This document shows positions 9,416-26,646 of a stretch of DNA of 51,691 nt, piece by piece. The stretch lies in the sequence record OZ346160.1; one strand, given 5' to 3'. The notes under the pieces are model-generated. The model searched no databases, had not been told where the DNA came from, and saw nothing but the letters and a program-made list of their open reading frames with translations. The stretch's first letter is position 1; each line of letters begins with the position of its first letter. Origin of the DNA: a phage. The translations under genes were made by a program, and so were the position numbers.

Positions 9416-10078
9416 ATGCACTTGCCTAATGGTTCTCAAATTTTCATCGGCGTTAATATGGGTGAGCCTATTCAGGCTACGGCTATTTCAAATGCTGATG
9501 ATCCTGTTTTTACGACTGCAAACACTCAAAGCATCAAAAAAGGCGCTTATGTTCTTATTGAAACATCTTCCTGGGGCAAACTTGTTAGTCGCGTGCTTCG
9601 AGTTAAGGAGGTATCAGATGATGCAAGCGTTACTCTTGAGGGTGTAAGCACGAAAGACACCAATGTTTTTCCGGCTGGTTCTAATACAGCAACTTTCCGA
9701 GAGGTGAAATCTTGGGTAGAGATTCCTTGCGTACAGGATCTTGCGCAGGACGGCGGCGAACAACAGTATTACACTTATCAGTGTTTGGCTGATGACCAGG
9801 AGCAGCAGTTACCGACCTATAAGAGCGCCGTTTCTCTTACCTACACTTTCGCGCATGAATATGATAACCCGATTTATCCGATCTTGCGCGAGGCTGAGGA
9901 ATCCGGCGACGTAACCGCTTTGCGTATGTACGTTCCGAAAGCTAAAGAGATGCGTTGCTGGGCTGGCGTATTGTCCTTTAATGACATTCCGCAAACCACT
10001 ATGAACGAAATGGAAACTGTTTCCCTTTCCGTATCTCTGAAAGGTCGATTTACGTTCTTATCTTCCGACATCAATTAA
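9416..10078 (+). CDS. major tail protein
   Basis: 220 aa; AGGAGG RBS; followed by strong terminator; precedes chaperone and tape measure genes. Confidence 0.6.
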   Translation: MHLPNGSQIFIGVNMGEPIQATAISNADDPVFTTANTQSIKKGAYVLIETSSWGKLVSRVLRVKEVSDDASVTLEGVSTKDTNVFPAGSNTATFREVKSWVEIPCVQDLAQDGGEQQYYTYQCLADDQEQQLPTYKSAVSLTYTFAHEYDNPIYPILREAEESGDVTALRMYVPKAKEMRCWAGVLSFNDIPQTTMNEMETVSLSVSLKGRFTFLSSDIN

Positions 10079-10081
10079 AAC

Positions 10082-10106
10082 AAGGGGCGTTGCGCCCCTT
10101 TTTTCA
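10082..10106 (+). terminator. rho-independent terminator after major tail gene
   Basis: AAGGGGCG-ttg-CGCCCCTT followed by T6. Confidence 0.65.
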
Positions 10107-10145
10107 TTCCTGTAAAATCAATCTATCAAATAAATCAATTCCACT

Positions 10146-10164
10146 TTTAACAAAAAGTGCTATA
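10146..10164 (+). promoter_or_regulatory. conserved motif, inverted orientation, upstream of tail chaperone/tape measure operon
   Basis: TTTTAACAAAAAGTGCTAT immediately followed by AAGGAG RBS and ATG 10178. Confidence 0.45.
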
Positions 10165-10177
10165 AGGAGATCTTGAG

Positions 10178-10495
10178 ATGGCAAAGATGAAACTAACGTT
10201 AGGCCCACTGCCTGATTTTAAGCTACCTGTTTCTTTCGTGCTTCCAAATGGTGATGAGCAAGTTATTGTTTTTACCGTGCGCCACAAGAAGGCAAGCGAG
10301 ATTCACGAACGATACACGGCAGAAAAGCCGATGAGCGACGTAGAAATGATCACCTTCCTTGCTTCCGATTGGGATCTGGAAGATGAATTTAACGAGGAAA
10401 ACGTTGCTAAATTGCTGGATTATTACCCTTCTGCGTCATTATCGCTGACTGGTCATTATATGAAAGCACTTGCGGGGCAGCGGGTAAAAAACTAA
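10178..10495 (+). CDS. tail assembly chaperone (G-like)
   Basis: 105 aa immediately upstream of tape measure gene; ends at slippery A AAA AAC. Confidence 0.65.
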   Translation: MAKMKLTLGPLPDFKLPVSFVLPNGDEQVIVFTVRHKKASEIHERYTAEKPMSDVEMITFLASDWDLEDEFNEENVAKLLDYYPSASLSLTGHYMKALAGQRVKN

Positions 10496-10812
10496 AGCGG
10501 GCGGTTTACCTGTTTTACCTCAAGCCGCCAACTGACGCACAATTAGAGGCCGTCGGCCTATCCCGTTCAGACTACGAAGGGGAGGATCCGCCGGAGGTAA
10601 TTTTTGATGAATCAATGTTTCAATCTTGGGATCTGTTTTGCGCTATGCAGACGCAATGGAGATCGACTAGCGGCAGCGTGTATGGGTTCGACTATAACGT
10701 TTTGCCTATGCTTTTTGACATTTACAAGATTGAGGATCGGGAGATGGCGCTAAATGATTTGCGCATCATGGAACAAAAGGCGCTAGAAATGATTCATTCA
10801 AACAAAACATAA
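10178..10812 (+). CDS. tail assembly chaperone frameshift product (GT-like, -1 PRF)
   Basis: -1 frame is open from the slippery heptamer A_AAA_AAC (about 10486..10492) to the stop at 10810..10812; canonical arrangement upstream of tape measure. Confidence 0.5.
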
Positions 10813-10851
10813 GCGCCGCAAGGCGCTTTTTTAATATCTGGAGGTTTTAAA

Positions 10852-13533
10852 ATGGCTGAGAAATACGCTGGCCTAACGCTAGGCGTTGACGTGTCGCAGG
10901 TCAACAATGCTGTTAAATCATTGCAGCAATTCAAGAAGGCAAACGACGACGCAAAAAAAAGCGTTAATGAATTTGTTGATTCTGAGGTTGTGGCGCGACA
11001 GCAAGCTAAACAGTTTGCCGAAGAATTGGCGCGCCAGAAAGCAGAATTTAAGAAAATCCAGGAGTCAATTGATCCCACCGCGTCAAAGATGGATAAGCTG
11101 CGAAAGGCAGCGACACAGCTTGATGCGCTATGGAAAAAGGGTATTGTTCCTGATGAGACTTTTTTTGAGCTTGGGGCAATTCTTGAGACACAGCAAAACA
11201 AGCTGATCGCAACCAAAAAAGCGATGACAGAGGAAGGCCGCGCGGCGCTTGAGGAATCAAAGAACAAAGCGCGTGCAGCGGAAGAGGCTAAAAAATTCAT
11301 CCAGGCTTTGCGTGAGCAGGAAGAAGCAGCCGGAAAAAGCAAGTCTGAATTGCTGGAAATGAAAGCGGCACAGCTTGGAGTTAGCCAGGAGGCAGCACCT
11401 TACATCGCAAGACTGAAAGAGCAGGAAAAGCAGATCCAAAAACTTGGGATTTCTACAGGCCAATACAATCAAGCAATGAAGCTATTGCCAATGCAGATCA
11501 CAGACGTGGTGACTTCACTTGCTTCTGGTATGCCTGTTTGGTTGGTAGCAATCCAGCAGGGCGGACAGATTAAGGATTCTTTTGGTGGCGCATCCAATGC
11601 TTTAAAAGCGTTGCTATCTTTCCTTAATCCGGTAAACGTGGCGTTTGGCTTGCTTTCCGGCACGCTGGCAATTGCTGCATATAATGCCTACAAAACACAG
11701 ACAGAGTTTGAGGCAATTAAAAAAACCGTTCAGGAAACAACTGGCTTGACTGGTGATTTTGCCGAAAAGATTGCTACCGGAATACAGGAGCTTTCCGACA
11801 AGACAGGCGAAAGCGCAGAAGATCTGGCAAAGGCTTACATCACCACGAAAGACGGCGCGAGCGAGGCGATTAAAAAACTGGTTGACGTTGGCATGACTTA
11901 TGATGATGCAAAAAAGAAAGTCAACGAGTACAAAGGCGCGTCTAGCTTTGTCAGCTTGAATAACGAAATTGCAAACCACAAAAACAAAGTCCTTGAGTTG
12001 GGCGACTCGTGGTATGAAGTTTTGAAAGCGAAGCGTGATTACGCTTCCCCGTCCGGCGGCCTGTTAGGTAAAGAGCTTGGCTATGTTAATCCTATGCTTA
12101 AGTTTGCACTTAACACTTATGAAGACATTGGAAAGGTCGTAAAAGATGCGAATAAGGACATGGCTGAACGAGCGGAGAGAATCGACAAAGAAAACCTTGC
12201 CTTGAACAGAGTGAGAGCAGCGCAGGAGGCTTTAAACAAAGCCATTGAGGATCAGAAGGGCGTGGCGCGTTCGGCTGATGAAGAACTGAAAAAGCGCGCG
12301 GCTGAAAACGTGGAGTTCAGGCGCAAAGAGCTTGAGGAGATCAAGAAGCAGGAGCAGAAAAAGAAAGAGGCTAAAGGCGGAATAGTTCGCGGCCCAACTG
12401 AGCAGCTTGATAAAGAGTTGTACGTTTTAAAAGCGCAACTGGAAACGCTTAAAGAGCATCGCACTGTTAACGATGTTATTTCTCGCCAGCGTAAATCTTT
12501 ATGGAGTATCGAAAAGCAGATCGAGATCCTGGAGGATGCGCAGAGCAAGCGTAAATTGACCGGAGCGGAACAGGCGCTACTAAACGAGCAAAAAGCCGTT
12601 TTGGAAATGGCAAGGCAAAAGGCTGAATTAGGGGATCAGATTGTTTTGCAGGAGCGCAAAAACAAGCTGGAGCAAGATAGCATTAAGTTTATCCGTGAAA
12701 CGCAGGCGGCTATTGATGTGCTTGGCCTTAAGCAACTTGGCTACACTGAAAAGCAGATCGAGCGTGAGCTAGAGTTACGCAAGCTGCGCACCGACTACGA
12801 GGCGCAAGGAGGAAGCGTTAGCGATGAAGTTTTTCAGCAAATGGAGGAGAAACTTAAGCTGTATTATCAGACACAGGATGAGGTTCAAGGCAACTGGTTG
12901 GCAGGAGCAAAAAACGCATGGGAGGTGTTCGCGGAAGATGCAAACAATGCCTATGGCAATGTTCAGCAGATCGCAAGCGAGGCGTTAAACGGCCTTACAA
13001 ACCAATTAGCGAATTTTATCGCTACTGGCAAGGCAAACTTTAAAGACTTCTCGACGGCTATCATCAAAATGATTATTCAGATGATCACGAAAATGGTTGT
13101 CTTTAATGCGTTATCTGGCCTGATGGGTGGTCAAACCTGGACGATGGGGAGCTTGCTTAAGAACATTGGCGGATTTGCTGGCGGTGGATACACTGGCGAC
13201 GGCGGGAAGTATGAGCCAGCCGGAATTGTCCATAAAGGTGAATTTGTCATGACGAAGGAGGCGACGCAGCGTATCGGGGTAGGCAACTTGTACCGCATGA
13301 TGCGAGGCTATGCTAACGGCGGCGTTGTTGGTAGTTCCGGCTATACTGGCGGCGGCGCTGTCACTGGTGGAACACCTCAATTTAACATTGGTGGGATTGA
13401 TGTTAGCATCAATAACGGCAGCGATCCGAAGGGCATCGAAACTGGCGTTAAGATGATCTTTACTGATATGATTAAACGTTCCTGTATGCAGGGCGGGGAG
13501 GTTTACGAATTTGTTATGAGCAAGCGAGGTTGA
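10852..13533 (+). CDS. tail tape measure protein
   Basis: 893 aa, long coiled-coil N-terminal region, Gly-rich C-terminal region; largest tail gene after chaperone. Confidence 0.85.
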   Translation: MAEKYAGLTLGVDVSQVNNAVKSLQQFKKANDDAKKSVNEFVDSEVVARQQAKQFAEELARQKAEFKKIQESIDPTASKMDKLRKAATQLDALWKKGIVPDETFFELGAILETQQNKLIATKKAMTEEGRAALEESKNKARAAEEAKKFIQALREQEEAAGKSKSELLEMKAAQLGVSQEAAPYIARLKEQEKQIQKLGISTGQYNQAMKLLPMQITDVVTSLASGMPVWLVAIQQGGQIKDSFGGASNALKALLSFLNPVNVAFGLLSGTLAIAAYNAYKTQTEFEAIKKTVQETTGLTGDFAEKIATGIQELSDKTGESAEDLAKAYITTKDGASEAIKKLVDVGMTYDDAKKKVNEYKGASSFVSLNNEIANHKNKVLELGDSWYEVLKAKRDYASPSGGLLGKELGYVNPMLKFALNTYEDIGKVVKDANKDMAERAERIDKENLALNRVRAAQEALNKAIEDQKGVARSADEELKKRAAENVEFRRKELEEIKKQEQKKKEAKGGIVRGPTEQLDKELYVLKAQLETLKEHRTVNDVISRQRKSLWSIEKQIEILEDAQSKRKLTGAEQALLNEQKAVLEMARQKAELGDQIVLQERKNKLEQDSIKFIRETQAAIDVLGLKQLGYTEKQIERELELRKLRTDYEAQGGSVSDEVFQQMEEKLKLYYQTQDEVQGNWLAGAKNAWEVFAEDANNAYGNVQQIASEALNGLTNQLANFIATGKANFKDFSTAIIKMIIQMITKMVVFNALSGLMGGQTWTMGSLLKNIGGFAGGGYTGDGGKYEPAGIVHKGEFVMTKEATQRIGVGNLYRMMRGYANGGVVGSSGYTGGGAVTGGTPQFNIGGIDVSINNGSDPKGIETGVKMIFTDMIKRSCMQGGEVYEFVMSKRG

Positions 13534-16019: not shown

Positions 16020-16063
16020 ATAGCACAATATGTTAAAGCGAAAACGGATTTTCGCTTTACAAT
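16019..16063 (+). promoter_or_regulatory. degenerate cassette copy upstream of HNH endonuclease
   Basis: AATAGCACAATATGTTAAAGC overlapping I-like gene stop; hairpin GCGAAAA..TTTTCGC; TACAAT at 16058..16063 (motif positions 40-45). Confidence 0.45.
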
Positions 16064-16080
16064 TAATTAAGGAGGTGATC

Positions 16081-16557
16081 ATGTGGCGTGATATTTTTTA
16101 TTATAATGACGGTAAGTTATTTTGGGCTGTAGACGTAGGAAGAAGGATAAAGAAAGGAAGTGAGGCAGGAAGCGTAAGCAAAAGCAAGAAGAGTGGAGAA
16201 AGGGTTAGAATATCAATTGATGGAGAAAGATACTACAGGAGCAGGATAGTTTGGGAAATTCATAATGGAGAAATACCGCATGGAATGCAAGTTGATCACA
16301 TAGATCACAACACAATGAACGACAATATTTCAAACTTAAGACTTGTTAGAATGAGTGTTAACAACAAGAATAAGTCGCTTTACAGGAACAGCAAGACGGG
16401 AATTACTGGGGTAAACTTTAGTCGCGGAAAATGGATTGCAAGAGCAAAGATTGATGGTGTTAGGCATGAATTTTACTTTGATTCATTTCAGGATGCGGCA
16501 GAAAAGAGGATAGAGATTGAAGTTTTAAACAAATTCCACATAAACCACGGAAAGTAG
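16081..16557 (+). CDS. HNH homing endonuclease with AP2-like DNA-binding domain
   Basis: Start at MWRDIF with AAGGAGG RBS; HNH motif HGMQVDHIDHNTMNDNISNLRLV; AP2-like GITGVNFSRGKWIARAKIDG; A-rich codon usage differs from neighbours. Confidence 0.75.
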   Translation: MWRDIFYYNDGKLFWAVDVGRRIKKGSEAGSVSKSKKSGERVRISIDGERYYRSRIVWEIHNGEIPHGMQVDHIDHNTMNDNISNLRLVRMSVNNKNKSLYRNSKTGITGVNFSRGKWIARAKIDGVRHEFYFDSFQDAAEKRIEIEVLNKFHINHGK

Positions 16558-16561
16558 ATTT

Positions 16562-16586
16562 AACCAGCATTGCGCTGGTTTTTTTG
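16562..16586 (+). terminator. rho-independent terminator after HNH gene
   Basis: AACCAGC-attgc-GCTGGTT followed by T7. Confidence 0.55.
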
Positions 16587-16598
16587 TGCCTTTATAAT
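16570..16598 (+). promoter_or_regulatory. putative sigma70 promoter for J-like gene
   Basis: TTGCGC - 17 nt - TATAAT (16593..16598), overlapping the HNH terminator hairpin. Confidence 0.3.
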
Positions 16599-16634
16599 GT
16601 GCAAACCAAGAAACAGCACAAAGGGTTAAAAGTC

Positions 16635-19600
16635 ATGGCTAAATATATGATAAGCGGCAGTAAGGGCGGAAGCAAAAAGCCATACGTGCCAAAAGAGATG
16701 GAAGATAACCTGATCTCGATAAACAAGATTAAAGTTTTGCTGGCTGTATCTGATGGCGAGTGCGATCCAGATTTCACGTTGCGCGATCTTTATCTTGATG
16801 ATGTTCCGGTTATTGCCAGCGATGGCACTGTTAACTATGAGGGTGTAACGGCTGAATATAGACCGGGCACACAGACGCAAGATTACATCCAGGGGTTTAC
16901 TGACACATCAAGCGAGGTGACAGTTTCGCGAGATATTACAATAGACAATCCCTATATTATCTCTGTAACAAACAAAAATCTTTCTGCAATCAGAATCAAG
17001 ATTCTGATGCCAACTGGCATAAAGCAGGAGGATAACGGCGATCTGGTAGGTGTTAGTGTCACATATGCCGTTGATATGGCGGTTGATGGCGAATCTTACA
17101 AAGAAGTTTTGCTGGACACCATTAACGGTAAAACGAGAACAGGTTACGACCGCAGTCGCCGTATCGACTTGCCGAAGTTCAATGATCGCGTATTGTTCCG
17201 CGTTCGACGAGTTACGCCAGACAGCACATCTTCAAAGGTGACTGATAAAATCAAACTGCAAAGTTACGCTGAGGTTGTGGATGCAAAATTCCGTTATCCT
17301 CTGACTGGCCTTGTATTTGTAGAATTTGACAGCGAATTGTTTCCTACACAAATCCCTAACATTTCTATAAAAAAGAAATGGAAGATTATTAATGTGCCAA
17401 GCAACTATGATCCAATATCAAGAGAATATCATGGGTCATGGGATGGGACTTTTAAGAAAGCGTGGTCAAATAATCCTGCATGGGTTCTTTATGATCTGGT
17501 GACGAATCAGCGTTATGGACTTGACCAGCGAGAGTTAGGAATACAGATCGACAAGTGGAGCTTATACGAGGCAGGCGTTTACTGTGATCAGAAAGTTCCA
17601 GACGGTAAGGGCGGTACAGAGCCTCGCTACCTATGCGATGTGGTGATTCAGAATCAAGTTGAGGCTTATCAGCTAATCCGTGACATTTGCTCAATCTTTC
17701 GCGGAATGAGCTTTTGGAATGGTGAGAGCTTATCAATCGTGATTGATAAGCCGCGCGATCCATCATACGTGTTTACTAATGAAAACGTCATCAACGGTGA
17801 TTTTCAGTACACAACCGCAAGCGAAAAAAGCATGTACACGCAGTGTAACGTGACGTTTGACGACGAACAAAACATGTATCAGCAGGACGTAGAGGGGGTT
17901 TTTGATACTGAGGCGGCATTACGATTTGGATACAATCCAACAAGCATTACAGCGATCGGGTGTACACGCAGGAGCGAAGCGAATCGTCGCGGTCGGTGGG
18001 TTTTGAAAACAAACCTTAGAAGCACTACTGTAAACTTTGCTACCGGACTAGAGGGGATGATTCCATCAATAGGTGATGTGATTGCTATCGCTGATAATTT
18101 TCATAGCAGCAACCTAACGTTAAACCTATCGGGCCGAGTGATGGAAGTTTCAGGATTGCAGGTTTTCGTTCCGTTTAAGGTTGATGCTCGTCCTGGTGAT
18201 TTTATTATCATCAACAAGCCGGACGGCAAGCCAGTTAAGCGCACGATTTCAAAGGTGAGCGCAGACGGAAAAACCATTGAGTTAAATATTGGCTTTGGTT
18301 TTGATGTTAAGCCTGATACTGTTTTTGCGATTGACCGTACTGACCTTGCGTTGCAGCAATACGTTGTGACAACTATCAGCAAGGGTGATGATGAAAACGA
18401 GTTTACCTTTTCAATCACGGCTGTGGAGTACGATCCGAACAAATACGACGAGATTGATTACGGCGTAAACATTGATGACAGGCCAACTTCAATTGTTCAG
18501 CCTGACGTGATGGTAGCGCCTGAGAACGTGCAGATCTCATCTTATTCTCGCGTTGTGCAGGGTGTCAGCGTTGAAACTATGGTTGTGTCGTGGGAAAAAG
18601 TGCCTTATGCGTCACTGTATGAAATGCAATGGCGAAAGGGTGATGGTAACTGGCTGAATACGCCGCAGACCGCTAACAAAGAGATAGAGGTAGAAGGAAT
18701 TTATTCAGGCAACTACCAAGTAAGGGTGAGATCCGTTTCTGCAAGCGGTAACACTTCCCCGTGGTCAAAGATTGCAACCGCAACCCTGACAGGTAAAGTT
18801 GGCGAGCCAGGAGCGCCGATTAATCTTACAGCTTCTGATAATGAAGTTTTTGGCATTCGTGTCAAATGGGGTATGCCGGAAGGGTCAGGAGATACGGCTT
18901 ACATCGAGCTTCACCAATCGCCAGATGGAACGGTGGAAAACTCAAGTTTGCTTACGCTGATCCCGTATCCTCAATATGAGTATTGGCATGGCACGTTACC
19001 AGCTGGGCAAGTTGTATGGTATAGAATCCGTAGCGTTGACAGGATCGGCAATGTTTCCGGCTGGACTGACTTTGTTCGCGGCATGGCGTCAGATGATGTT
19101 GATTCTGTTTTAGGCGACATTCTGGACAAGATTTTTGATACCGAAGCTGGTCAAGAAATCAAAGAGAACGCCATAGACAGCGCCAACAAAATCAAAGACC
19201 AGGCGCAATCAATCATTCAGAACGCTTTGGCAAATGATTCTGATGTTAGAGTTATGAAAAAGGAGAATGGGAAACGGAAAGCTGAATTTAGGCAATCTAT
19301 ACAGATGATTGCTGATGAAACAGAAGCAAGGGTGACAGCGTTAACGCAATTAAAAGCAGAATTTGATGAGGAGATAACTAGCGAAGTAACAAGACTTGAT
19401 CAGGCGATCGCAACAGAATCAGAAACGCGAGCAACAGCTATAGAGGAATTAAAATCACAGATTGGTGATGATATACAGGGGCAGTTAACTAGAGTTGAGG
19501 AAGCGATTGCAAGCGAAACAGAGGCGCGCGTTTCTGCCGATACTGCATTAACGGCAAAGTTTGGTGATCTTGAGTCGGCACTTACTGAAAAACTTGATTC

Positions 19601-20060
19601 ATGGGCTGGCGTTGATGGAGTTGGCGCACAGTACGCAATGAAACTTGGATTGACATACAACGGGCAGAAGTACAGCGCTGGTATGGTGATGCAGCTTTCG
19701 CAGGGTTCATCCGGCCTTATTTCGCAGATTTTGTTTGATGCGAACAGGTTCGCTATCATGACAAGTTCGACTGGAGGGTCGTATACATTGCCTTTTGTGG
19801 TAGAAAATAACCAAGTTTTCATTAACAGTCTGTTAGTGAAAAGCGGATCAATCACAAACGCCATGATCGGTAACTTCATCCAATCAAACAATTACGTTTG
19901 GAATCAAACAGGATGGAGGCTGGATAAAAACGGCACGTTTGAAAATTATGGTTCTACTCCTGGAGAAGGGGCCATGAAAATGACAAACGAAACGATCAGC
20001 GTTAGGGATGTAAACGGAGTTTTGCGTGTTCAGATTGGTAGGCTGACTGGTACGTGGTAA
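16635..20060 (+). CDS. tail tip / host specificity protein (lambda J-like central fibre)
   Basis: 1141 aa from MAKYMISG; size, position after I-like gene, fibronectin III-like segments in middle. Confidence 0.8.
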   Translation: MAKYMISGSKGGSKKPYVPKEMEDNLISINKIKVLLAVSDGECDPDFTLRDLYLDDVPVIASDGTVNYEGVTAEYRPGTQTQDYIQGFTDTSSEVTVSRDITIDNPYIISVTNKNLSAIRIKILMPTGIKQEDNGDLVGVSVTYAVDMAVDGESYKEVLLDTINGKTRTGYDRSRRIDLPKFNDRVLFRVRRVTPDSTSSKVTDKIKLQSYAEVVDAKFRYPLTGLVFVEFDSELFPTQIPNISIKKKWKIINVPSNYDPISREYHGSWDGTFKKAWSNNPAWVLYDLVTNQRYGLDQRELGIQIDKWSLYEAGVYCDQKVPDGKGGTEPRYLCDVVIQNQVEAYQLIRDICSIFRGMSFWNGESLSIVIDKPRDPSYVFTNENVINGDFQYTTASEKSMYTQCNVTFDDEQNMYQQDVEGVFDTEAALRFGYNPTSITAIGCTRRSEANRRGRWVLKTNLRSTTVNFATGLEGMIPSIGDVIAIADNFHSSNLTLNLSGRVMEVSGLQVFVPFKVDARPGDFIIINKPDGKPVKRTISKVSADGKTIELNIGFGFDVKPDTVFAIDRTDLALQQYVVTTISKGDDENEFTFSITAVEYDPNKYDEIDYGVNIDDRPTSIVQPDVMVAPENVQISSYSRVVQGVSVETMVVSWEKVPYASLYEMQWRKGDGNWLNTPQTANKEIEVEGIYSGNYQVRVRSVSASGNTSPWSKIATATLTGKVGEPGAPINLTASDNEVFGIRVKWGMPEGSGDTAYIELHQSPDGTVENSSLLTLIPYPQYEYWHGTLPAGQVVWYRIRSVDRIGNVSGWTDFVRGMASDDVDSVLGDILDKIFDTEAGQEIKENAIDSANKIKDQAQSIIQNALANDSDVRVMKKENGKRKAEFRQSIQMIADETEARVTALTQLKAEFDEEITSEVTRLDQAIATESETRATAIEELKSQIGDDIQGQLTRVEEAIASETEARVSADTALTAKFGDLESALTEKLDSWAGVDGVGAQYAMKLGLTYNGQKYSAGMVMQLSQGSSGLISQILFDANRFAIMTSSTGGSYTLPFVVENNQVFINSLLVKSGSITNAMIGNFIQSNNYVWNQTGWRLDKNGTFENYGSTPGEGAMKMTNETISVRDVNGVLRVQIGRLTGTW

Positions 20061-23200: not shown

Positions 23201-23857
<657 letters not shown>

Positions 23858-23860
23858 TAA

Positions 23861-23884
23861 ACGGGGCGCTTGCGCCCCTTTTGT
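23861..23884 (+). terminator. rho-independent terminator between Erf-like gene and ssb
   Basis: GGGGCGC-tt-GCGCCCC followed by TTTT. Confidence 0.55.
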
Positions 23885-23900
23885 CATAGGAGAAAACAAA

Positions 23901-24353
23901 ATGCACGTTATTACAGGTGAGATCAGAAAAGAGCCAAAAGTAAAGCAAATGCCTAACGGCAGCACGCTATATGTTGTTGAGCTTTCCGAGCGATACAAAG
24001 ACAGAGAAGGAAATTGGCAGTATACAAACTATGTGTTTTTCTTTAACGCGAAAACAGATGGCCTGAATGGTTGGTATGCTGAGGCGTTCCAGGTTGGTAA
24101 GGTTATTTCTGTTTCCTGCGATACCTTGCGGGTTGAAACGCGAGAATACAACGGAAAGATTTACAGCACCGTGCAGCCTGGCGGATTTGCAAACTTGCTA
24201 TTTAGCCAGCGAGGTGAAAGCCAGCAACAATATCAGCAGCGAACGCAAGGAGGCTGGGGGCAACCACAACAGCAACAGCAACAAAACCATCAACAGCAAC
24301 CACAGCAAAGCAATCAGCCTCCGATTGACTTTGACGACGACATACCCTTCTAA
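23901..24353 (+). CDS. ssb: single-stranded DNA-binding protein
   Basis: Start MHVITGEIRKEPK with GGAG RBS; OB-fold-like N-terminus, Gln/Gly/Pro-rich linker, acidic C-terminal tip DFDDDIPF typical of SSB. Confidence 0.8.
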   Translation: MHVITGEIRKEPKVKQMPNGSTLYVVELSERYKDREGNWQYTNYVFFFNAKTDGLNGWYAEAFQVGKVISVSCDTLRVETREYNGKIYSTVQPGGFANLLFSQRGESQQQYQQRTQGGWGQPQQQQQQNHQQQPQQSNQPPIDFDDDIPF

Positions 24354-24355
24354 TA

Positions 24356-24390
24356 ACAAAAATCCCCGCACAAGCGGGGATTTTTTTATT
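24356..24390. terminator. bidirectional terminator between ssb and tail fibre
   Basis: A-run, TCCCCGC-acaa-GCGGGGA, T7. Confidence 0.65.
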
Positions 24391-26596
24391 CTGTATCTGT
24401 TGGATTGTTGATTAATTTCGCTACCGCTTTTTTTAGATCCTCTATCTCTTTCTCCATTTTCTCAATTTTGTTTCCCATGTAGACCATAGCGCAAGCCATA
24501 TCAGCCATTATAACGTTATTGTCAAGAGCTAGTGTATCATCTGCTTTGTCAACCACAATCTGACGATCCACATATTCTTCACCTTCATCATTAACGCCTA
24601 TAACATCTGCAAAAATGTCCCCTCCAGGTATTAGCTTTACATATTCAGGATCTATTTTTAACAGATCCTGCGCTATCATCCCGAATCGCTGGATGTTGCT
24701 TCCATTGTATTTAAACATTGTCGGCAGCCACTGCATAACGCGATCATAGCTTTCCTTTCCATCTGTATAAATTATATCGTGCTTTAAATCTCTGTCAGAG
24801 TTAGCGGCCTTTTGAAAAATGAAATTTCCACTTGATGACCATGTGGTTATATCGTTTGATACTGGATTAAAATGGAAGTTACAGAAAAAATCATGATCAC
24901 CACGAAGCCTTAACGAGCAAAGAGGCCATGCATTATTACCTTGTGAGATAAGACCCCAAGTTGCACGAATCGGGTATCCACCAGTTGATTGTGTAGCCCA
25001 AGATAACCCAGGACACCAGCCGCCATCATTATTGGTTATAATTTCACCCCAAACAAGAGCATTACCCCAATAATTTGGATCGTCCCACCCCATTTGTTGA
25101 GTTTTTCCGGTGTATTGAGCAGAATGCGTTTTTCCGTCAGGGTAAAACTTGTGCATATAGCTTTGAACACCATGCTTATACAGTTCAATCCCAAAAGACT
25201 CAATTTGGGCAGCACCACCTCTGATCAAACCTGCGATAGCGTAATCATTATACCAGTGGTACTGGCTTAAACCAGTCCATGCGTTTATCTGTGGGTTCAC
25301 AACTGAAAAGAATCGTGACGGATTGTGATCATTTCCGTCAGCATAAAAACCCTCACCAGGAGCTAAAGCTACCTTTTTTGGACCAGTAAAATTACCATTT
25401 ACATCAAACTGATAATACTGTGATAACCCGTTGTGAAACACACCTATTGTATGCTTTCCTACGCCTACTTGAGTTTCAAAATAAGACTGAGAAGATCCAA
25501 TATCCTCACCTTGTGTATTCTTTAGTGTTGAATGGTATATACCTGCGTTTGCAGTAGTTGCATTTTCCGTTTCGTTTTCAACATTAAGACGCAAAAACTT
25601 TGGTGAATGTTTTTCGCCAAGTCCTATATTGTTTCTGATGCCATTTGCGTCAATAGCTCCAGTGCCACCAGAAGAAATAGCTAAAGGAACAGTTTCAAAT
25701 GACCCAGACCCTGATACGTCCCTCTGGAAAACAAGAAGACCATCATCTCTGATAACAAGCCTATATTCTCTATTTCTAGAGTACAAGATAGTATGCACGT
25801 AGTCCTGAAAAAATGAATCAATGCTAAGCGTCCGGCGAGCTTCATCAATGTCAGAAAGATATTTAAGGTTCTGATCCTTATGCACTAGATTTTCAGGATT
25901 TACCTGTTGCGCCCACTGGCGAGCTTCATCACGCGCAGTTTCAGCGCCAGCCTTTGCATTATTTGCCTCAACGGCATGATTGCCAGCAGTATCGCGCGCC
26001 AGTTCAGCCTGATCGCGAGCATCAAAAGCCTCCTGTTTAATAGCTTCCGTTTCTGCAATAGCAGAATCCTTTATCTGTTGCGTTTGAGTTTTGATTGCGT
26101 CAGTATCCGCTTTAATTTGATTTGACTCAGCGACAGCAGAATCCTTTATCTGTTGAGTGTCATTTTTTAATTGTTCAGTGGCTGCGCGATCTGTTGCTAC
26201 TTGTTGCGCAGATTCCTTAGCTTGATTCACCAGATCCTTTAAGCCATCCAAATCAAAATCTTTAAAAAACTCTATTGCTTCTGCAATTTCTGTTTCCTTG
26301 CTCTGGTAATAACGCAAAGTTTCCGCTACATCCTGCGCAAGCCCGTCAACCGTTAACGAGTCATGAAGCAAGATCAGGTAATTTGTCTTCTGGACTACCG
26401 CGCCGCCAGTAGTAATTGCGCGAATGCTTGTATCGCTAATCACTTCTGTGATCACAGCAGCTTGCAAAGGTTGAGTGAGAAAGAAAATGGTTGCACCTGG
26501 GCGAATCAATGTTAATTGCTCGCGCCATTTTGTGTCGTAACCAGTTACATAACCTTGAGCGTCCATAGACGCTTGGCCTTGTCTGTAAATCGCCAT
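24386..26596 (-). CDS. tail fibre protein with C-terminal intramolecular chaperone (S74-like autoproteolytic) domain
   Basis: Start MAIYRQ with AGGAGG RBS; coiled-coil repeats ([10 protein letters not shown] / [10 protein letters not shown]); C-terminal region has Ser/Lys pair in ANSDRDLK followed by about 120 aa. Confidence 0.7.
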
Positions 26597-26611
26597 TTGT
26601 AAAATCCTCCT

Positions 26612-26646
26612 AAATAGCACTTTTTGCTAATGACAATTCAGATAAT
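26612..26646 (+). promoter_or_regulatory. conserved motif copy adjacent to tail fibre start (inverted relative to that gene)
   Basis: AATAGCACTTTTTGCTAATGAC then GATAAT; on - strand the motif abuts AGGAGG RBS of the tail fibre gene. Confidence 0.4.

What the first reader, a model, noticed from the sequence alone, without database searches (positions are those of the whole stretch)
10486..10812. Programmed -1 frameshift site in the tail assembly chaperone gene
The chaperone ORF ends just after the slippery heptamer A_AAA_AAC (about 10486..10492). The -1 frame is open from there to 10812, giving a fusion of about 211 aa directly upstream of the tape measure gene. This is the conserved G/GT arrangement of long-tailed phages.
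Basis: partly seen in the sequence, partly recalled or inferred. Interest (0 to 1): 0.45.

Follow-up and report, generated by a model that had tools for sequence, protein, structure and literature searches.

The report
Tail chaperone G/GT -1 frameshift site
This is the ordinary, already documented programmed -1 ribosomal frameshift that lets a T1-like coliphage make a short and a long form of its tail assembly chaperone from one stretch of DNA just upstream of the tape measure gene.

Summary
The 105-aa chaperone ORF (10178-10495) ends GTA AAA AAC TAA. A_AAA_AAC (10486-10492) is its only in-phase X_XXY_YYZ heptamer. The -1 frame is open from 10411 to the stop at 10810-10812, which gives a 211-aa fusion. 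The tape measure gene starts at 10852.

- The G part is Pfam Phage_TAC_4. The T part is DUF1799.
- The -1 frame has no ATG/GTG/TTG before 10615, yet those 41 codons are conserved as protein and show third-position-biased substitution.
- The two-frame layout recurs in more than 1000 phage genomes.
- In 53 distinct sequence contexts, third-base entropy falls from 1.6-2.0 bits to 0.14-0.39 bits over exactly the three heptamer codons. The 0-frame stop always follows within a codon.
- A hairpin starts 7 nt downstream. It is only marginal in this phage (-13.2 kcal/mol, z about -1.6) but strong in T1 and many other relatives.

The window is a Warwickvirus (Drexlerviridae), 99.4% identical to phage NorthRox over the segment compared. 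Published T1-like genome announcements (Stevie, U136B, Solomon) already report this frameshift, and Hafnia phage Pocis76 annotates it as a joined CDS. Most close relatives annotate two separate ORFs instead. This is a correct call of a known feature, and interest is low.

The parts
9416..10078 (+). Major tail (tube) protein gene, the upstream neighbour of the chaperone
   Evidence: Pfam Phage_tail_3 2.7e-63 and phrog_584 1.2e-90
10082..10100 (+). Terminator-like hairpin plus T-run between the tail tube gene and G
   Evidence: Consensus scan. T1 annotates a rho-independent terminator at the equivalent place.
10164..10169 (+). Shine-Dalgarno AAGGAG, 8 nt before the G start codon
   Evidence: Read from the sequence
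10178..10495 (+). G: tail assembly (tape measure) chaperone ORF, 105 aa, the product of standard decoding
   Evidence: ORF list and translation. Pfam PF08748 Phage_TAC_4, 105.6 bits against a cut-off of 21.1.
10486..10492 (+). Slippery heptamer A_AAA_AAC (P site AAA Lys, A site AAC Asn), the inferred -1 shift site
   Evidence: Only in-phase X_XXY_YYZ in G. Present in 46 of 53 distinct relative contexts. Third-base entropy is 0.14-0.39 bits here against 1.6-2.0 bits in the six codons upstream.
10493..10495 (+). 0-frame stop TAA immediately 3' of the heptamer, a possible pause element
   Evidence: TAA or TGA follows the last sense codon in all 53 distinct contexts. It directly abuts the heptamer where a heptamer is present and lies one codon after the tetramer variants.
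10500..10529 (+). Candidate stimulatory hairpin: GGCGGUUU (10500-10507) pairs with AAGCCGCC (10522-10529), 14-nt loop, 7-nt spacer after the heptamer
   Evidence: MFE -13.2 kcal/mol. z -1.52 against dinucleotide shuffles and z -1.61 against synonymous-codon shuffles. Marginal here, strong in T1 (z -5.5) and many relatives.
10492..10812 (+). T segment: -1 frame extension, 106 codons plus stop TAA at 10810-10812, expressed only as the C-terminal half of the 211-aa GT fusion
   Evidence: Translation. Pfam PF08809 DUF1799 48 bits over residues 23-101; phrog_680 and phrog_17368. No ATG/GTG/TTG in this frame before 10615. Codon-position substitution bias is 118/91/270 in the start-less part.
10615..10812 (+). 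65-aa ATG-started sub-ORF that most GenBank relatives annotate as a separate gene; probably an annotation artefact
   Evidence: Annotation tables. No SD motif 4-16 nt upstream of the ATG; the GGAGG lies 17 nt upstream.
10811..10828 (+). Terminator-like hairpin plus T-run between the T stop and the tape measure gene
   Evidence: Consensus scan. Annotated as a terminator in T1 and vB_Eco_Sip.
10852..13533 (+). Tape measure protein gene (893 aa), the presumed client of G/GT
   Evidence: Pfam TMP_2 1.1e-36 and Tape_meas_lam_C 3.4e-22; phrog_24 5e-193

Best explanation
Ribosomes translating the chaperone gene G (10178-10495) mostly terminate at TAA 10493-10495 and release the 105-aa protein. A small fraction slips one nucleotide backwards on A_AAA_AAC (10486-10492). 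In that slip, tRNA-Lys re-pairs from AAA to AAA and tRNA-Asn from AAC to AAA. Translation then continues with CTA (10492) in the -1 frame to TAA 10810-10812. The product is a 211-aa G-T fusion whose C-terminal half is a DUF1799 domain.

The adjacent stop codon and a GC-rich hairpin 7 nt downstream (10500-10529) probably slow the ribosome over the site.

By analogy with lambda gpG/gpGT, many G copies and a few GT copies would coat the tape measure protein, and the T domain would recruit the tail tube protein. Neither would end up in the virion.

Shown here: the sequence architecture, coding selection in the -1 frame without a start codon, and nucleotide-level selection on the heptamer. Inferred: the slip itself, its efficiency, the role of the hairpin and stop, and the assembly function.
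For: - Architecture and phase.
- Family assignments: one search gives G = Phage_TAC_4 (2.6e-30), T = DUF1799 (1.5e-12), with the tail tube gene upstream and the tape measure gene downstream. One search shows phrog_17368, a 213-position profile, matching G at positions 1-107 and T at 109-211, so fused proteins of this kind are already in databases.
- Conserved two-frame layout: tblastn of the 211-aa fusion finds 1125 phage records. 1083 cover at least 80% of the query, and the listed hits match in two frame pieces. All 21 fetched phage loci have T in the -1 frame. All 80 IMG/VR loci show the same junction, apart from three with a five-A run.
- Constraint on the heptamer: 46 of 53 distinct contexts carry A_AAA_AAC followed by a stop. 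The codon before it is GTA or GCA (four-fold degenerate) and its third base is A in 52 of 53. Flanking third positions vary freely.
- Coding selection without a start codon: the 40 codons of T upstream of the first possible start show substitutions of 118/91/270 at codon positions 1/2/3, like the rest of T at 220/123/435. The first start codon in the T frame wanders from codon 5 to codon 68 among relatives, usually without an SD motif.
- Prior annotation and literature: the Pocis76 joined CDS and the papers on T1-like phages.
- Motif precedent: A_AAA_AAC is a low-efficiency but used -1 motif in E. coli, as in IS1.
Against: - No protein, Ribo-seq or reporter evidence exists for this phage or, as far as I found, for any Drexlerviridae member.
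- A_AAA_AAC is a poor shifter in E. coli.
- The downstream hairpin in this phage is not significantly better than shuffled controls: z -1.5 to -1.6, with 5-7% of shuffles as stable.
- Two related subfamilies lack any hairpin.
- Most close GenBank relatives annotate two separate genes rather than a join.
Confidence: 0.9

Rival explanations
1. T is a separate small gene. Ribosomes initiate independently at ATG 10615 and make a 65-aa protein, as most GenBank relatives annotate, and no frameshift is needed.
For: Close relatives annotate exactly this ORF. A GGAGG lies upstream at 10593-10597.
Against: - The GGAGG is 17 nt from the ATG, and no SD motif lies 4-16 nt upstream of it.
- The 41 codons upstream of the ATG have no start codon, yet they are conserved as protein with third-position-biased substitution.
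- The Pfam DUF1799 and phrog_680 matches begin at T residues 23 and 9, before the Met at residue 42.
- The first start codon in this frame lies anywhere from codon 5 to codon 68 in relatives.
- This reading does not explain the synonymous-site freeze on the heptamer.
Confidence: 0.04
2. The frame change is made at the RNA level. RNA polymerase stutters on the A6 run and adds one A to a fraction of transcripts, which then encode GT in a single frame.
For: The site is a homopolymeric A6 run. Transcriptional slippage is known in bacteria and phages (review).
Against: - From general knowledge, six A is shorter than the runs that give appreciable slippage by E. coli RNA polymerase, roughly nine or more.
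- Relatives keep the function with motifs that are not homopolymers but are classic ribosomal motifs in the right phase: G_GGA_AAC in a Ralstonia phage, and A_AAG or A_AAA tetramers in Rogunavirinae, Webervirus and others.
- The phase of the run relative to the 0 frame is fixed.
- A hairpin sits at the canonical 7-nt spacing in many lineages.
Confidence: 0.04
3. The two ORFs are one gene broken by a sequencing or assembly indel, or are a decaying pseudogene.
For: Homopolymer runs are error-prone. Three IMG/VR relatives show a five-A version.
Against: The same -1 arrangement, with a stop right after the motif, occurs in more than 1000 independently sequenced phage genomes down to 25% protein identity. 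Both parts are under purifying selection.
Confidence: 0.01
4. The shift happens elsewhere in the 85-nt overlap (10411-10495), for example on the C_CCU tetramer at 10426-10429.
For: C_CC.Y tetramers are weakly shift-prone in E. coli. The tetramer lies inside the open -1 window.
Against: - It would replace the conserved C-terminal 22 residues of G.
- In several relatives (Pocis76, KarlJaspers, phiEB49, AV129) the overlap is only 10-43 nt, so the -1 frame is closed at the equivalent position.
- The nucleotide-level constraint is centred on the last three codons.
Confidence: 0.01

Closest known systems
Phage lambda gpG / gpGT (Levin, Hendrix & Casjens 1993; Xu, Hendrix & Duda 2004, 2013, 2014; summarised in PMC5009743)
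   Same: Two overlapping ORFs lie between the major tail gene and the tape measure gene. [quoted passage not shown] That product is predicted to act as a chaperone for the tape measure protein.
   Different: The slippery motif differs (lambda uses G_GGA_AAG, from my own knowledge). The only Pfam hits here are Phage_TAC_4 and DUF1799, which are not the families I recall for lambda G and T, so sequence homology is not shown. Here the stop codon abuts the heptamer.
Phage T1 genes ST40/ST39 and other Drexlerviridae tape measure chaperones (Stevie PMC4319613, U136B PMC8104045, Solomon PMC8407766; Hafnia phage Pocis76 joined CDS QVW27739.1)
   Same: These are the same protein families, with the same A_AAA_AAC + TAA junction and the same gene order. 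The frameshift is explicitly reported in the papers.
   Different: T1 and most Tempevirinae have a stronger two-part hairpin (-15 to -20 kcal/mol, z -3 to -6). This Warwickvirus has lost the inner helix through a Gln-to-Leu codon change and keeps only the 8-bp outer stem.
IS1 insA-insB' -1 frameshift
   Same: It uses the same low-efficiency heptamer A_AAA_AAC in E. coli and produces a rare fusion protein. Low efficiency is the point of the design.
   Different: It is a transposase, not a phage assembly factor, and has no established stimulator.
HK97-like tail assembly chaperone cluster tested by GeneTack authors (PMC3711429)
   Same: It is a phage tail assembly chaperone with a programmed frameshift. 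Measured efficiency was 6-7% in reporter assays, the order of magnitude expected here.
   Different: It is a different protein family, and I did not see its motif.

Membership tests
G/GT-type tail assembly chaperone with conserved programmed frameshift (Xu, Hendrix & Duda 2004) | Two overlapping ORFs located between the major tail protein gene and the tape measure gene | tested here: met
   Tail tube gene 9416-10078, G 10178-10495, T frame 10411-10812, tape measure gene 10852-13533
G/GT-type tail assembly chaperone with conserved programmed frameshift (Xu, Hendrix & Duda 2004) | The second ORF is in an alternative frame, has no start of its own, and is nevertheless protein-coding | tested here: met
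   T is in the -1 frame. No ATG/GTG/TTG lies between 10411 and 10614. Substitutions at codon positions are 118/91/270 in that stretch. Pfam and PHROG matches start upstream of the first Met.
G/GT-type tail assembly chaperone with conserved programmed frameshift (Xu, Hendrix & Duda 2004) | A slippery sequence in the overlap, conserved among relatives beyond what the protein requires | tested here: met
   A_AAA_AAC occurs in 46 of 53 distinct contexts. The other seven carry G_GGA_AAC, or A_AAG or A_AAA tetramers. Third-base entropy is 0.14-0.39 bits against 1.6-2.0 bits upstream.
G/GT-type tail assembly chaperone with conserved programmed frameshift (Xu, Hendrix & Duda 2004) | A fusion protein is actually made, at a low fixed ratio to G | not testable with these tools
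   Needs mass spectrometry, western blot, reporter assay or Ribo-seq
G/GT-type tail assembly chaperone with conserved programmed frameshift (Xu, Hendrix & Duda 2004) | Both products are required for tail assembly, bind the tape measure protein (G) and the tail tube protein (T), and are absent from virions | not testable with these tools
   Genetic and biochemical property. Inferred only by analogy with lambda.
Pfam PF08748 Phage_TAC_4 | Score above the curated gathering threshold | tested here: met
   105.6 bits against 21.1, covering G residues 1-105
Pfam PF08809 DUF1799 | Score above the curated gathering threshold | tested here: met
   48 bits against 26, covering T residues 23-101
Lambda gpG / gpT protein families (sequence homology) | A significant profile match to the lambda G or T families | tested here: not met
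   The Pfam scan at E<=0.01 returned only PF08748 and PF08809. There was no NCBIfam hit and no PDB sequence relative. Fold-level similarity was not tested.
Canonical -1 PRF cassette (heptamer + 5-9 nt spacer + downstream RNA structure) | X_XXY_YYZ heptamer in phase | tested here: met
Canonical -1 PRF cassette (heptamer + 5-9 nt spacer + downstream RNA structure) | A stable downstream structure at the right spacing, more stable than controls | tested here: inconclusive
   In the window there is an 8-bp stem after a 7-nt spacer, -13.2 kcal/mol, z -1.5 to -1.6. Across 15 lineage clusters, 10 are more stable than synonymous recodings (mean z -1.13, p about 0.03). The hairpin is strong in T1 (z -5.5) and absent in Braunvirinae and Rogunavirinae.
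dnaX-type stimulation by an upstream Shine-Dalgarno-like element | A conserved SD-like sequence 6-17 nt upstream of the motif | tested here: not met
   Third positions of the six upstream codons vary freely (entropy 1.6-2.0 bits) and no conserved GGAG-like element appears

The most novel reading that the evidence does not exclude
In Drexlerviridae the low-efficiency heptamer may be tuned by a bipartite stimulator. One part is a 0-frame stop codon that follows the shift motif directly or one codon later in all 53 distinct contexts. The other is a hairpin starting about 7 nt downstream, rebuilt from different sequences in separate lineages (T1-like GGGCGG/CCGCCC, Vilniusvirus GGCUGU/ACAGCC, Dhillonvirus GGCGGCG/CGCCGCC). 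The invariant Ala4 of the T domain may then be held partly by RNA-level selection. Lineages without the hairpin either keep the heptamer (Braunvirinae) or have moved to the A_AAG tetramer (Rogunavirinae), which would imply different GT:G set-points.
Probability: 0.35. Interest if true: 0.25.

Novelty: already known. Interest (0 to 1): 0.1.

Why it matters
The main practical value is annotation quality. The window's closest GenBank relatives (NorthRox, JLBYU16, vB_Eco_Sip, tunzivis) list G and a truncated 65-aa ORF as separate genes. They often label both "tail length tape measure protein" rather than a joined chaperone CDS. Anyone engineering tails, or interpreting defence systems that sense the tail assembly chaperone (Avs17), needs the correct 211-aa product. 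Biologically this adds nothing new in kind. It is one more instance of a recoding event conserved across long-tailed phages.

Tried and rejected
- Rfam scan of 10000-11000 at a permissive E-value. No frameshift-element family matched. The only hits were sub-threshold sRNA models lying on the terminator at 10072-10155.
- Large protein database search with the 211-aa fusion. It returned only three T-type proteins, too few for an alignment, so I ran no structure prediction or fold search.
- PDB sequence search and NCBIfam. No relatives were found.
- Upstream SD-like stimulator. Rejected because the third positions upstream vary freely.
- Formal base-pair covariation on the hairpin. Not attempted. 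Within the T1-like group the stem varies only on one side, and between lineages the 3' arm sits in different codons, so an alignment-based count would be circular. I used synonymous-codon shuffles per lineage instead.
- Other in-phase heptamers followed by long -1 ORFs. T_TTA_AAC at 16524 is followed by the next gene, beyond a terminator. A_AAA_AAA at 24428-24434 on the minus strand runs into a low-complexity region antisense to a Gln-rich gene. I judged both to be chance.
- Literature searches for Tunavirinae or DUF1799 together with frameshift found nothing.

Full report
**What the window is.** The segment 9400-11000 is 99.4% identical to Escherichia phage NorthRox and 96-98% identical to some fifty other coliphages. 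The annotated records place these in Drexlerviridae, Tempevirinae, genus Warwickvirus, which are T1-like siphophages.

**Checking the observation.**
- The ORF at 10178-10495 encodes 105 aa ending ...AGQRVKN*. An AAGGAG lies 8 nt before its ATG.
- Its last codons are GTA AAA AAC TAA. A_AAA_AAC therefore sits at 10486-10492 in the X_XXY_YYZ phase, and the stop follows immediately.
- It is the only in-phase heptamer in the ORF.
- The -1 frame is open from 10411 to TAA at 10810-10812, 133 codons.
- The next gene, 10852-13533, is the tape measure protein (TMP_2 and Tape_meas_lam_C). The previous gene, 9416-10078, is the tail tube protein.

**Comparison with chance.** Long ORFs of the window hold 44 in-phase heptamers in 13,176 codons. 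Only 1.1% of codon positions have a -1 frame open for at least 106 codons. A heptamer on the last two sense codons followed by such a frame is not a chance arrangement.

**What the two parts are.**
- G is Pfam Phage_TAC_4 (105.6 bits, cut-off 21.1).
- The -1 segment is DUF1799 (48 bits, cut-off 26) and matches from residue 23. phrog_680 matches from residue 9. Both begin well before the first Met at residue 42.
- One PHROG profile of 213 positions matches G with its first half and T with its second half. Fused proteins of this type are therefore already in databases.

**Is the -1 segment translated from the junction?**
- The frame has no ATG, GTG or TTG between 10411 and 10614.
- I compared the 40 codons between the junction and the first Met with 12 other Drexlerviridae. 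Substitutions fall 118/91/270 on codon positions 1/2/3. The rest of T shows the same pattern at 220/123/435.
- The peptide LKRAVYL.Y.KPPTD..L...GL is conserved across subfamilies.
- Among relatives the first possible start codon in this frame lies anywhere from codon 5 to codon 68, and usually lacks a Shine-Dalgarno motif. In the window the nearest GGAGG is 17 nt from ATG 10615.
- The 65-aa ORF that most GenBank relatives annotate is therefore best seen as a gene-caller artefact.

**Conservation of the arrangement and of the site.**
- tblastn of the 211-aa fusion finds 1125 phage records. 1083 cover at least 80% of the query, and the listed hits match in two pieces. Identity goes down to about 25% in Ralstonia phages.
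- In all 21 fetched phage loci the second ORF is in the -1 frame. All 80 IMG/VR loci show the same junction apart from three five-A variants.
- In 53 distinct 33-nt contexts the stop (TAA 49, TGA 4) directly follows the last sense codon.
- 46 contexts carry A_AAA_AAC. The other seven are a Ralstonia phage with G_GGA_AAC; Rogunavirinae with GCA AAG GTC; Webervirus with GCA AAA GTC, GCC or GTT; and two other phages with CAA AAG CAC or CCC.
- The last three groups are A_AAG or A_AAA tetramers. These are known -1 motifs in E. coli, with A_AAG ranked best.
- Third-base entropy is 1.6-2.0 bits at the six codons upstream. It is 0.14, 0.39 and 0.14 bits at the three heptamer codons. The four-fold-degenerate Val/Ala codon ends in A in 52 of 53 contexts.
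- This is selection on the RNA sequence, not on the protein.

**Stimulators.**
- No conserved SD-like element lies upstream.
- Downstream, the window folds into GGCGGUUU (10500-10507) paired with AAGCCGCC (10522-10529), with a 14-nt loop and a 7-nt spacer, at -13.2 kcal/mol.
- This is marginal. z is -1.52 against dinucleotide shuffles and -1.61 against recodings that keep the protein and the gene's codon usage, with 5% of recodings as stable. A 115-nt fold gave z -0.99.
- Relatives do better. T1 reaches -15.9 kcal/mol (z -5.5). Most Tempevirinae and Tunavirinae reach -15 to -20 kcal/mol (z -3 to -6).
- Other lineages form a hairpin at the same start point from different sequences: Vilniusvirus, Dhillonvirus and Pantoea phage MED16.
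- Braunvirinae and Rogunavirinae have none.
- At one value per 75%-identity cluster, 10 of 15 clusters are more stable than their recodings (mean z -1.13, p about 0.03).
- The Warwickvirus version has lost the inner CUG/CAG helix because Gln is replaced by Leu (CTC).
- I rate the hairpin as a probable but unproven stimulator. The always-adjacent stop codon is a possible second one.

**Mechanism.** The best-supported model is tandem -1 slippage of tRNA-Lys and tRNA-Asn on A_AAA_AAC, or P-site slippage while the stop codon waits in the A site. Either gives ...VKN-LKR..., or ...VKK-LKR... if the slip precedes A-site decoding. A_AAA_AAC is a weak motif in E. coli but is used by IS1, where a small amount of fusion protein is wanted. 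That suits a chaperone whose long form is needed in small amounts; the ratio is 30:1 in lambda. The assembly roles, G on the tape measure protein and T recruiting the tube protein, are inferred from lambda only.

**Rivals.**
- Independent initiation at 10615 fails to explain the start-less conserved 41 codons or the frozen heptamer.
- Transcriptional slippage on A6 is unlikely. The run is short, and relatives use non-homopolymeric ribosomal motifs in a fixed phase.
- A sequencing error or pseudogene is excluded by recurrence in more than 1000 genomes.
- A shift at the C_CCU tetramer (10426-10429) is excluded because several relatives close the -1 frame there.

**Comparison with what is known.** The arrangement is the conserved G/GT frameshift of long-tailed phages. 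For T1-like phages it is already reported in genome announcements for Stevie, U136B and Solomon. It is annotated as a joined CDS in Hafnia phage Pocis76, which is 65% identical. By sequence the proteins belong to Phage_TAC_4 and DUF1799, with no other Pfam hit at E<=0.01. Membership in the lambda protein families is therefore not shown, although the system works in the same way.

**Verdict.** The feature is already known and interest is low. The useful residue is an annotation correction for Warwickvirus genomes and a modest comparative picture of how the site and its hairpin vary across Drexlerviridae.

Noticed in passing
window 10178-10812; relatives L001-L004, L007-L015: Most GenBank relatives annotate G plus a truncated ATG-started ORF (here 10615-10812) as separate genes. 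Pharokka-style records label G, T and the real tape measure protein all as 'tail length tape measure protein', because the PHROG families for G and T (phrog_569, 680, 17368) carry that label. Only Pocis76 among those inspected has a joined CDS.
   Followed up: yes
window 10082-10100 and 10811-10828: Terminator-like GC hairpins with T-runs bracket the G-T cassette, one after the tail tube gene and one between the T stop and the tape measure start. T1 and vB_Eco_Sip annotate terminators at the same places. This suggests stepwise transcriptional attenuation from tube to chaperone to tape measure.
   Followed up: partly
L054, L056, L067 (IMG/VR), position about 895-901: Three relatives have GTAAAAAC, with five A instead of six. 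That would put T in the +1 frame relative to G. L054 and L067 show other signs of indels nearby, so these are probably homopolymer sequencing errors. They have not been verified.
   Followed up: partly
L014, L077, L081, L082, L087 (Rogunavirinae); L015, L090, L092, L100, L101 (Webervirus); L018, L019: The heptamer is replaced by tetramer motifs one codon before the stop: GCA AAG GTC TAA, GCA AAA GTC TAA and CAA AAG CAC TAA. Some weberviruses (L094, L097) keep A_AAA_AAC, so the motif type switches within a genus.
   Followed up: partly
window 16524-16530: An in-phase T_TTA_AAC lies 8 codons before the stop of the 175-aa ORF 16030-16557, with the -1 frame open for 1178 codons into the large tail-tip gene (16584-20060). 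A terminator-like hairpin (about 16563-16587) lies between them and the downstream gene has its own start. I judged this to be chance.
   Followed up: partly
window 10072-10155, minus strand: A sub-threshold Rfam match to the Salmonella sRNA family STnc50 (35 bits against a gathering score of 55, E 5e-4) overlaps the terminator hairpin between the tail tube gene and G. It probably reflects the hairpin alone.
   Followed up: no
window 24428-24434, minus strand: An in-phase A_AAA_AAA lies 13 codons before the end of the 744-aa tail-fibre-like ORF (24386-26620), with 78 open -1 codons. That frame runs antisense through the Gln-rich tail of the plus-strand gene 23850-24353 and looks like a low-complexity artefact.
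   Followed up: partly
window 10492-10503 and relatives: T residues Leu1 and Ala4 are invariant across all lineages. Leu1 is forced by overlap with the G stop (C+TA). Ala4 (GCG or GCU) forms the core of the 5' arm of the hairpin, so its invariance may be partly an RNA-level constraint.
   Followed up: no
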